The notes under the pieces are model-generated. The model was given only the letters and a program-made list of their open reading frames with translations, was not told the origin of the DNA and did not search any database. A DNA stretch of 64,000 nucleotides from Octopus vulgaris (Eukaryota), in assembly GCA_951406725.2 (NCBI GenBank), contig OX597816.1, forward strand, positions 163,804,001 to 163,868,000, given 5' to 3'. The position numbers and the translations under genes were made by a program. Positions 33,496 through 60,465 of this stretch are shown piece by piece; the stretch's first letter is position 1, and each line of letters opens with the position of its first letter.

Positions 33496-33536
33496 TATTT
33501 AGCGCTTTCGTCCATTCGTTGGGACTCTTCAGAATA
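33496..33536 (-). ncRNA. Minimal type I hammerhead ribozyme, core intact
   Basis: TATT CTGAAGA GTCC CAACGAAT GGAC GAAA GCGC TA AATA, with a palindromic helix III (AGCGCT). Confidence 0.8.
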
Positions 33537-57589: not shown

Positions 57590-57912
57590 TTACTTTATTC
57601 TTTTACTTGTTTCAGTCATTTGACTGCGGCCATGCTGGAGCATCGCTCTTTAGTCGAGCAAATCGACCCCCAGGACTTTATTCTTTGTAAGCCCTTGTAC
57701 TTATTCTAGCGATCACTTTTTTGCCGATGCGCTACGTTACGGGGACGTAAACACACCAACATCGGTTATCAAGCGATGGTGTGATGGGGGGGGCAAACAT
57801 AGACACACACACATTGATATATATACTCTTGCTCAAGGTATTTCGCAGTGGGACTGAACCCGGAACCATGTGGTTGGGAAACAAGCTTTTTACCACACAG
57901 CCACTCCTGCGC
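57590..57912 (-). mobile_element. SINE S1, internally deleted
   Basis: Head and tail present, CORE-adjacent part missing. Confidence 0.8.
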
Positions 57913-57981
<69 letters not shown>

Positions 57982-58074
57982 CGTGTGTGTGTGTGTGCAT
58001 GTGTACATATATATATATATATGTATGTAAATATTTGCATTGGGACCCCTTCGCATCGAAGACCGGTGATTGTT

Positions 58075-58117
58075 GTGCGCTGACGACGGGTAAATACCCA
58101 GAAACCCGGGTCCGTGC
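58075..58117 (+). ncRNA. Type I hammerhead ribozyme, core intact; predicted cut after 58112
   Basis: GTGCG CTGACGA C GGGT AAAT ACCC A GAAA CCCGGG TC CGTGC, with a palindromic helix III (ACCCGGGT) and a GUC site. Confidence 0.85.
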
Positions 58118-58574
58118 GTATCACGTCAGGTCGACGATGGAAAGGATGGCTTCTCTTTGCAAATACTGATAGGGTACAGAAAGTGTGTCAATAGCCAGCT
58201 GGAGAAGATGTTCTCCTGGGGCTACAAGCTACAGTTGCATCCACCCTTTGTGGTTAGCCACATTTAAGTGGCAAATATACTTCACATTGTCGTGTAGCTA
58301 CTGTTTATACTTCGTTTACATATTTATTATATATTCATACACATATGTATGTATTTACAAGTATATATAACTTTAAATTCGACTAATTCGTTACTAGTGG
58401 CCACATGTTTCTGTGTGAACGTTAAAAACCAAGGACTTATTTAGTACTTATGGGCGTGACGATTTAAAAACAATGGTTTGCTAAATAATTATGACCGAAT
58501 TTACAATTGTAAATAACGGCGAGAATAAAATAAGGGAGGTGAATGAGAGAAATACTAACTCTTCACCTCTTTAA

Positions 58575-60465
58575 CAACTTACAGCTGGAGAGTTGTAGCC
58601 GTGATGGGGAACCGCAGTTAGCTTTGCTACACTTTCACCACTGGCAACCTCATCTGATATGCGGCATTTGATGAAAGATCGACTTTGATGTTGCTGTCCT
58701 CATCTGTTTTTGTTGCCATGAAGTAGGCTCATCCGGAACTCTAAGTGGAGGAGATCCAGTATATTTTTTAAGACACCTACATCCACACCATGCAGAGAAT
58801 ACTGGGGAGCTATGGGCCCTTGAAACCCAAGCTGTTACAGTATCTGGTCCTCTGTCTTGATGGCGATCTTTTGCTGTTTGTGTAACTATCAGTGCCAAGG
58901 GTTCTCCAGATCTATATTACTGCATACCTTTCCCGCCCTTGTTCGAGGAGGTAGAGTCTTAACTTTTTCAGCCTTTTCCAGTAGCTGACATGTTGCATTG
59001 AGACGATCTTCTTTGTGTAGCTTCGCTGGCTTGCTTCGAGTCCCGTCGTCAATTTTACACTGTATGGTGAACATAGTTGGGAACGGTAATCTAAATGGCT
59101 GAGGGTAAATGTCCGCCAGGGGACCATCATGGTTTCTTGTTCTCTTATTTCTTTATTGCCCATAAGGGGCTAAACATAGAGGGGACAAACAAGGACAGAT
59201 AAAGGGATTAAGTCGATTACATCGACCCCAGTGCGTAACTGGTACTTAATTTATCGACCCCGAAAGTATGGAAGGCAAAGTCGATCTCGACGGAATTTGA
59301 AATCAGAACGTAACGGCAGACGAAATACCTATTTCTTTACTACCCACAAGGGGCTAAACACAGAGGGAACAAAAAAGGACAGACAGACTGATTAAGTCGA
59401 TTATATCGACCCCAGTGCGTAACTGGTACTCAATTTATCGACCTCGAAAGGATGAAAGGCAAAGTCGACCTCGGCGGAATTTGAACTCAGAACGTAGCGG
59501 CAGACGAAATACCGTTCAGCATTTCGCCCGTGCTAACGTTTCTGCCTGCTCGCCGCTCGTTTTCCTGTTCTCTTGTTCTGCATTTTATTGCCAACTTATC
59601 GATATGCACCCGGAAAGTTACATCATTACTCATGTCGATGCCCAGATCAAGCATTGATTGATGTCCTGATCGATGTTCTGATTGATGCCCAAGGTCGATG
59701 CCCAAATCACGCAATTTAAGGGTGGCTATCTGAGCAGCTGAGAGCGTGTCTGAAAGGGCTACTATGAATAGCAGTGCCTTCAGGACAGTGACCTATAGAA
59801 CAACACTCATTATTTGTGTTTCCTTGGAGGTGGCCCCTTTGACCACCGTTGGCACCGTTGAACTTATTCAAATGTACACATCCAAGCACACAAAACACAC
59901 ACAGACACATATACATAACAGAATAACACACACAATGTCAAAGACCACCACTATCTGACTTCTATCTTTTAGAAAGTCATGTAGCCCCTCTCAAAGATTT
60001 TCCAACTATGACTACGTAGTTTGTGAGATATCACACCATGGTCGACTTTATCAGAGGCTTTTGCAAAGTCGAGATATATCAGATCCACACTTGAGTTGTT
60101 GAGTAACTGCTTTAACACACAGTCGTACTGCGACAAAAGCTGTGTCAGGCAGGTTCTACCTAGTCGAAAGCCGTGCTGGGTGTCAGTCAGCAAGTCATTC
60201 TTTTCAAGGAATGCAATTGGTTTTCTTCGGACTATTCGCTCCTTGAGTTTGCTGATGTGAGGGTGCAGAGAGATAGGCTTTTAATTTTCATCATCTTCTC
60301 TGCTTCCTCTTTAATGGATAGGGCATAGAGAGCTTACCACTTGCAAGGAGGCTCTGAAAAAGAAAGTACAGTGATTTTGCAAGAGCTTGTTTGAATGATT
60401 TGAGGATTGCTGGGAATCCATCAGGACCAGCTGCTGAGCCAGCATCTACCTCATTTACGGCCAAT
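58575..60465 (-). mobile_element. Decayed CR1/L2-like LINE (RT domain to 3' tail), interrupted by a SINE
   Basis: 'SAAGPDGFP', 'QHGFRLGRTCLTQLL...VDLIYLDFAKASDKVDH', 'SHLDY', 'VPDEP' and a degenerate 3' tail. Confidence 0.9.
59147..59556 (-). mobile_element. Dimeric SINE S2 with a TSD of about 14 bp
   Basis: Same dimer junction as 23118-23523. TSD tttcttgttctctt (59133-46) / tttcctgttctctt (59561-74). Confidence 0.9.

What the first reader, a model, noticed from the sequence alone, without database searches (positions are those of the whole stretch)
58030..58167. Intact GUC hammerhead at the tip of a long rod-like fold
The core-perfect HHR (58075-58117) has stem I extended by nested complementary blocks: GTGAT/ATCAC, GACC/GGTC, CATCG/CGATG and TATTTGCA/TGCAAATA. 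It begins right after a TA tract. Inference: a separate retrozyme or pLTR family, and a good candidate for activity.
Basis: partly seen in the sequence, partly recalled or inferred. Interest (0 to 1): 0.7.

Follow-up and report, generated by a model that had tools for sequence, protein, structure and literature searches.

The report
Truncated retrozyme copy with self-blocked hammerhead
This is one shortened copy of an abundant, protein-less jumping repeat whose self-cutting RNA motif is predicted to fold shut when alone and to open only in tandem pairs, a known kind of element that is likely copied into the genome by a Penelope-type enzyme.

Summary
They are the middle of a 299-nt, 5'-truncated copy (58032-58330) of a dispersed, non-coding repeat with a 352-364-nt unit and at least 928 copies. 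The rod covaries between subfamilies.

Three corrections. (1) The base of stem II is a family-wide C·A mismatch, not G-C. (2) The TA tract is the insertion target, not the element's start. (3) This lone copy is predicted to fold its core shut (hammerhead fold +11.7 kcal/mol), whereas a young tandem array of a sister subfamily folds as a double hammerhead.

Insertion ends look Penelope-made: 120 of 147 3' ends fall at two sites, 5' ends are scattered, (TA)n is the common target, and 23 of 24 head-to-head pairs use one site each. No linked Penelope ORF was found. Cleavage and circular RNA were not shown.

Verdict: a new member of the animal non-LTR retrozymes. Earlier scan notes describe similar elements elsewhere in this genome.

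The parts
58032..58330 (+). 5'-truncated copy (299 nt) of a ~357-nt non-coding retrozyme unit, subfamily A; no tandem or inverted partner in the window
   Evidence: only family segment in the window; 96.3% to subfamily majority, 11 mismatches
58074..58118 (+). Type I hammerhead: stem I 58074-79/58113-18, CUGACGA 58080-86, C10.1·A11.1 mismatch (58087/58100), stem II 58088-91/58096-99, GAAA 58101-04, GUC 58110-12; predicted cut between 58112 and 58113
   Evidence: cleavage not tested
58104..58111 (+). Palindromic stem III (ACCCGGGU; ACUCGAGU in subfamily D): predicted dimer helix, and partner of 58087-91 in the predicted closed monomer fold
   Evidence: (C-G 17, U-A 8 of 27)
58032..58165 (+). 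Rod extending stem I: 58066-70/58120-24, 58061-64/58129-32, 58054-58/58135-39, 58032-39/58158-65
58180..58286 (+). Branched hairpin domain ending at the first common insertion end (site 1, about 58286)
58287..58330 (+). Optional ~45-nt 'tail' between the two common insertion ends; this copy ends at site 2 (58330)
58008..58031 (.). (TA)n / TATG microsatellite abutting the truncated 5' end: likely target site, not part of the element

Best explanation
This is a 5'-truncated copy of a high-copy, non-coding repeat of the animal non-LTR retrozyme kind, whose type I hammerhead is predicted to fold shut as a monomer and which was likely inserted by a Penelope-like reverse transcriptase/endonuclease. 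Likely cycle: (1) Tandem source loci are transcribed (inferred). (2) Two neighbouring hammerheads pair through their 8-nt palindromes and cut as a double hammerhead, releasing a unit-length RNA (fold predicted; cleavage untested). (3) A host ligase closes the RNA into a circle (by analogy with mussel and axolotl retrozymes). In the circle the rod forms and the 5' strand of stem II pairs with the palindrome, keeping the ribozyme off (predicted). (4) A Penelope-type protein cuts AT-rich DNA and primes reverse transcription at two fixed internal sites about 45-50 nt apart (end pattern shown; enzyme inferred). This gives truncated, partial-tandem and head-to-head copies. The window copy was primed at site 2, read across the cut site and stopped after 299 nt. 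It is probably an inert product.
For: Copy number: 43 matches from 40 scored of 1785 candidates; 271 exact core-plus-palindrome hits, control 0; 928 hits of a 19-mer, control 0. Unit: 352-364 nt, GC about 0.46, longest stop-free stretch in the array 81 codons. Tandems: 9 cores at 352-nt spacing in L136, two-core copies L034, L038, L061. Covariation over 27 chosen copies: 59 cells changed on both sides against 24.0±5.4 in shuffles (0/500) and 5-19 in slid controls; the palindrome changes C-G to U-A in 8 of 27. Folding: closed tip P>=0.76 in 17 of 27 monomers, stem III P<=0.03 in all 27; the L136 tandem's unconstrained minimum-energy fold is the double hammerhead, P 0.85-0.91. Ends: 120 of 147 3' ends in two 21-nt windows against 17.5 expected; 5' ends spread; 71 of 120 3' flanks carry (TA)3 against 9% background; 37 head-to-head pairs, and 23 of the 24 with both ends at the sites use one of each (p 8e-7). 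These match the Penelope signatures in PMC8557442 and PMC11167929. Young Penelope-like RT plus GIY-YIG elements exist in the genome.
Against: No homology between the unit and any pLTR in the 42 Penelope loci fetched, so the driver is unidentified. No pile-up of copy ends at the predicted cut (1 of 147 5' ends within 3 nt, 2.9 expected), so the genome gives no direct trace of cleavage. The double-hammerhead fold was not predicted for 3 of 4 real tandems (L034, L038, L061) or for 4 of 4 single subfamily-A units doubled in silico. For the A majority unit it depends on one stem II base (cross-palindrome P 0.94 against 0.01). The closed fold has no covariation support (351/500 shuffles). No A-type tandem with two perfect palindromes was found. 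The count of pairs with two-sided change (14) is not above shuffles (142/500). Related sequences inflate the cell count.
Confidence: 0.8

Rival explanations
1. The repeat is the detached pseudo-LTR of an autonomous Penelope-like element. The copies are 5'-truncated stubs of that element's RNA, not an independent retrozyme.
For: The insertion signatures are those of Penelope elements. In Xenopus, 24 of 57 retrozyme families matched known transposable elements, mostly Penelope pLTRs (10.64898/2026.07.22.740005). Only 42 Penelope loci were examined.
Against: Copies longer than one unit continue upstream into the unit itself, never into an ORF: 25 of 147 segments exceed 360 nt. tblastn of two Penelope proteins against 96 family loci found one separate remnant 2.2 kb away on the other strand and one weak 38-residue hit. 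The hammerhead is canonical-sized, not the minimal pLTR type (PMC4209133).
Confidence: 0.1
2. The hammerhead is catalytically dead or nearly so in the whole family. The rod and palindrome are kept for RNA stability or protein binding, and copies are made from uncleaved tandem transcripts.
For: C·A at 10.1/11.1, the most conserved stem pair after A15.1-U16.1 (PMC3088659). U4C in 18 of 101 cores, a change reported to lower activity in vitro (same paper). No copy ends at the cut. Cleavage was dispensable for Penelope insertion in vitro (PMC11167929). 8 of 9 Xenopus dimers did not cleave.
Against: Core bases stay fixed across subfamilies 70-80% alike while stems covary. The palindrome is kept through a two-sided change. 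The axolotl HHR_Amex2, with a U·U mismatch there, cleaves, more so as a dimer (PMC7229834).
Confidence: 0.2
3. This window copy is itself an active monomeric ribozyme, helped by loop I / loop II tertiary contacts that folding programs do not score.
For: Helix sizes and the six-base loop II resemble canonical type I motifs. Coral and mussel monomers cleave (PMC7229834). This copy keeps all core bases.
Against: The hammerhead fold is 11.7 kcal/mol above the minimum. A private C>T at 58074 weakens stem I. There is no tandem partner, and two whole copies in trans stay closed (cross-palindrome P 0.03).
Confidence: 0.15

Closest known systems
Metazoan non-LTR retrozymes (Cervera & de la Peña 2020, PMC7229834): mussel 350-390-bp repeats, axolotl Rtz_353 / HHR_Amex2
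   Same: Non-coding unit of about 350 nt, GC under 50%, one type I hammerhead per unit, short palindromic stem III, dispersed and tandem copies, highly paired predicted circle; HHR_Amex2 also has a mismatch at the base of helix II.
   Different: The mismatch is C·A, not U·U. One subfamily has a CCGAUGA core. The monomer circle is predicted to block its own hammerhead, which that paper says most animal retrozyme circles do not. Expression, cleavage and circles are not shown here.
Penelope-like elements (Poseidon PAc, PMC11167929; insertion structure in PMC8557442; min-HHRs in PMC4209133)
   Same: 5' truncation, partial tandems, inverted 5' copies, an optional tail at one end, AT-rich / (TA)n targets, two internal priming sites downstream of a hammerhead.
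   Different: No ORF and no homology to the pLTRs sampled. The tail is about 45-50 nt, against 30-40. The hammerhead is canonical, not minimal. The two arms of inverted insertions almost always use different sites, whereas PAc showed no strand difference in vitro.
Retrozymes as non-autonomous Penelope derivatives (bioRxiv 10.64898/2026.07.22.740005)
   Same: Co-occurrence with Penelope elements; monomer, dimer and multimer forms.
   Different: Their evidence is distribution and pLTR homology in vertebrates. Here it is the insertion-end footprint, with no homologous pLTR found.

Membership tests
Type I hammerhead ribozyme | Core CUGANGA ... GAAA ... UH at a three-way junction, open stem I | tested here: met
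Type I hammerhead ribozyme | Paired 10.1-11.1 (usually G-C) | tested here: not met
   C·A in this copy and in 85 of 101 cores (that pattern favoured C/T at 10.1). In the 100 listed hits, which left these positions free, I counted by eye 88 C, 10 T, 2 G at 10.1 and 99 A at 11.1. Natural mismatches here are known (PMC3088659, PMC7229834).
Type I hammerhead ribozyme | Covarying stems I-III | tested here: met
   two-sided changes in stems I and III, one-sided only in stem II
Type I hammerhead ribozyme | Match to an Rfam hammerhead model | tested here: not met
Type I hammerhead ribozyme | Self-cleavage | not testable with these tools
   folding predictions only
Metazoan non-LTR retrozyme | Non-coding unit of 150-450 bp, GC under 50%, one type I hammerhead per unit | tested here: met
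   352-364 nt, GC 0.46
Metazoan non-LTR retrozyme | Tandem dimers to multimers in the genome | tested here: met
   Met for the family (L136 nine cores; L034, L038, L061). The window copy is single, and no perfect A-A pair was found.
Metazoan non-LTR retrozyme | Expressed as linear and circular unit-length RNA | tested here: inconclusive
   no raw RNA reads for the best-matching organisms; no ends or circle junctions in a relative's RNA-seq
Metazoan non-LTR retrozyme | No LTR, primer-binding site or polypurine tract | not tested
   No dedicated search; the end pattern is not LTR-like
Penelope-like element pLTR | Flanks an RT + GIY-YIG ORF | tested here: not met
Penelope-like element pLTR | 5' truncation, partial tandem, inverted copy, one-sided tail, AT-rich target | tested here: met

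The most novel reading that the evidence does not exclude
The family carries a built-in conformational switch. The conserved C10.1·A11.1 mismatch frees the 5' strand of stem II to pair with the stem III palindrome, locking the ribozyme in the monomer circle and releasing it only when two units pair in a tandem transcript. The Penelope enzyme, working as a dimer, then primes each cut DNA strand at its own dedicated site on the retrozyme RNA, which would explain why the Penelope 'tail' appears at only one end of an insertion.
Probability: 0.35. Interest if true: 0.55.

Novelty: new member of a known kind. Interest (0 to 1): 0.32.

Why it matters
Retrozymes have long been proposed to ride on Penelope enzymes, with little mechanistic evidence. 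This family shows the Penelope insertion footprint on an ORF-less circle-like RNA and gives two testable predictions: a monomer-off, dimer-on fold, and one priming site per DNA strand. The particular copy flagged is an ordinary, probably inert member. Three literature searches listed no paper whose title or abstract start describes an octopus or cephalopod retrozyme. Repbase and Dfam could not be searched, and supplements were not read, so the family may already be catalogued.

Tried and rejected
Rfam, whole window at gathering score and 57800-58500 at E<=10: no hammerhead, only microsatellite-driven miRNA/snoRNA hits.

Tandem search for two perfect GAAACCCGGGTC 332-348 nt apart: 0. This spacing would miss the 364-nt subfamily.

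Autonomous partner: a GIY-YIG search gave 150 scored hits, mostly one young 781-aa family. Two of 12 longer loci held a family copy nearby (L098, L102), but each is separated from the Penelope element, so I rejected a chimeric junction.

Expression: no RNA holder was listed. RNA-seq of a related organism gave 211-351 reads per run at mostly under 90% identity, on both strands, with no start or end pile-ups and no joints. Putative RNA contigs hold family sequence but do not cover this copy's unique 3' flank. None of this is evidence for or against.

Same-template test for the two arms of inverted insertions: 7 of 27 pairs are closer to each other than to any outside copy, and 17 of 27 share at least one private variant, with no null model: inconclusive.

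Automatic RNAalifold missed the outer stem because of a misalignment. My first alignment had one row on the wrong strand and was redone. In one search the L018 unit was mis-extracted (1710 nt) and is dropped from the count. No clean target-site duplication could be read in the microsatellite flanks.

Full report
OBSERVATION. The window is G000:C3:163804001-163868000 of a 2.8-Gb, microsatellite-rich animal genome. That it is octopus-like is my inference from recall and from earlier scan notes, not a tool result. The stretch folds better than shuffles (-57.1 kcal/mol, z -3.16, 3 of 200). A scan of both strands of the window for type I hammerheads found only this one and one at 33500-33532. Rfam has no match.

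CORRECTIONS. The first pair of stem II is C58087·A58100. This is not decay. It is C·A in 85 of 101 cores pulled from the fetched loci (the sample was biased by my queries and the pattern favoured C/T at 10.1). Among the 100 listed hits of a pattern that left those positions free I counted by eye 88 C at 10.1, 99 A at 11.1 and no G-C pair. The predicted monomer tip is not a hammerhead: CGGGU pairs with the palindromic stem III (P 0.94-0.99), GAC pairs with the GUC triplet, and forcing the hammerhead costs 11.7 kcal/mol. These energies ignore tertiary contacts. The TA tract marks a truncation: other copies continue upstream, and this one continues to 58330.

THE FAMILY. A search of the genome scored 40 of 1785 candidates and gave 43 matches at 88-100% identity. 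Exact patterns gave 271 and 928 hits, both with 0 in the reversed control; these are lower bounds. The unit is 352-364 nt (about 357 in subfamily A), GC about 0.46, with no coding capacity. There are at least four subfamilies, 70-95% alike. A younger one (D) often has a CCGAUGA core (U4C in 18 of 101 cores, 9 of them from one array) and the palindrome ACUCGAGU. It forms a nine-core array at 352-nt spacing whose units differ by 0-4 bases. The array's outer partial units differ by eye from the inner ones, so local DNA amplification may have built it. The window copy is 96.3% identical to the subfamily A majority. Its 3' junction is also seen in one contig of run X17, which may be the same sample.

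STRUCTURE. I chose 27 of the 101 cores, with intact upstream arms and spread over the subfamilies. The hammerhead-plus-rod structure, drawn from the window copy, is paired in 87.5% of cells. 59 cells changed on both sides, against 24.0±5.4 in shuffles (0/500) and 5-19 in slid controls. The number of pairs with such changes (14) is not above shuffles (142/500), and relatedness inflates cell counts. Clear subfamily swaps include G-C/A-U in stem I, in the GACC/GGUC helix and in the outer stem, and C-G/U-A inside the palindrome. Units of A and D fold as circles at z -4.2 and -6.2 (0 of 60 shuffles each), with the hammerhead region at the tip of the rod and a branched domain at the other end.

The closed tip is predicted in 17 of 27 monomers, and stem III has P<=0.03 in all 27. 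Its pairs are conserved but show no covariation. For the real L136 tandem the unconstrained minimum-energy fold is the double hammerhead. Against this: three older real tandems and four doubled single A units do not fold that way (a fifth was mis-extracted and dropped). The A majority unit, which lacks a 4-nt insertion seen in read-through copies, pairs its palindromes across units at P 0.94 with one common stem II base and at P 0.01 with the other; the fully constrained form is 5.6 kcal/mol above the minimum. Two whole window copies in trans stay closed (P 0.03), although the isolated 145-nt rods pair their palindromes (P 0.93).

INSERTION FOOTPRINT. Among 147 segments in 97 loci, 120 3' ends fall in two 21-nt windows about 174 and 218-224 nt after the predicted cut, against 17.5 expected. 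5' ends are spread evenly. 71 of those 120 flanks carry (TA)3 within 25 nt, against 9% of background. 25 segments exceed 360 nt (longest 579). There are 37 head-to-head pairs; 13 have an end elsewhere, and of the other 24, 23 use one site each (expected fraction 0.49, p 8e-7). In the sample anchored downstream of the cut, 29 of 45 segments read across it and 1 starts within 3 nt of it. The template is therefore circular or uncleaved, not a cut-to-cut linear monomer.

These are the signatures described for Penelope elements: truncation, partial tandems, an inverted 5' copy, a tail at one end and a (TA)n bias (PMC8557442, passages), and AT-rich cutting of both strands with priming at two internal sites (PMC11167929, parts 1-2 of 4). 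The genome holds young Penelope-like elements: a 781-aa RT plus GIY-YIG ORF with copies up to 99% alike. None of 42 such loci shows pLTR homology to the unit, and none of 96 family loci is joined to such an ORF. The enzyme is inferred, not identified.

MECHANISM. Shown: sequence, copy number, unit, tandems, covariation, end pattern. Predicted: closed monomer, open dimer. Inferred by analogy: transcription of tandems, double-hammerhead cleavage, ligation to circles (RtcB in vitro in PMC7229834; passages and parts 2-4 of 6 read) and Penelope-driven insertion (also argued in bioRxiv 10.64898/2026.07.22.740005, parts 1-3 of 5; PMC4209133, parts 1-2 of 4). RNA data gave no verdict. Mismatches at 10.1/11.1 and U4C have precedents as weakened but functional variants (PMC3088659, passages). 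A search for the mismatch terms led only to that paper, whose passages mention U·U, not C·A. Supplements of these papers were not read and may show mollusc hammerheads like this one.

NOVELTY. It is a new member of a known kind. I stated my reading before opening earlier scan notes. Those notes then showed similar 359-492-nt Penelope-footprint retrozymes elsewhere in this genome; they are unchecked and not independent support. One of them suggested that both arms come from one RNA circle; my test was inconclusive. The self-blocking fold tied to the C·A mismatch and the one-site-per-arm rule are the points worth a bench test. The flagged copy itself is ordinary. Interest 0.32.

Noticed in passing
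window 33500-33532, minus strand: A second type I hammerhead of an unrelated, older repeat family: canonical G-C at the base of stem II, palindromic AGCGCU stem III. 46 matches at 75-92% identity apart from the self hit, some as close inverted pairs.
   Followed up: partly
L136:4029-6900 (G000:C2 about 14086500-14089500): Nine-core tandem array of subfamily D, 352-nt period, units 0-4 bases apart, CCGAUGA core; best candidate for a cleavage test.
   Followed up: yes
L094-L099 (e.g. G000:C6:133343700-133349200): Young Penelope-like family with an upstream 479-aa frame and a 781-aa RT plus GIY-YIG frame, a long repetitive 3' region, copies up to 99% alike, ending in (TA)n. My scans found no clear hammerhead in its 3' region.
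   Followed up: partly
window 57594-57900 and 59140-59560: Very high-copy SINE-like repeats next to the element; contig depth is far above that of the retrozyme.
   Followed up: no
L045:1487-1916: Two family segments of different subfamilies (92% and 81% to the A unit) lie tail to tail within about 10 nt, suggesting repeated insertion into the same (TA)n tract.
   Followed up: no
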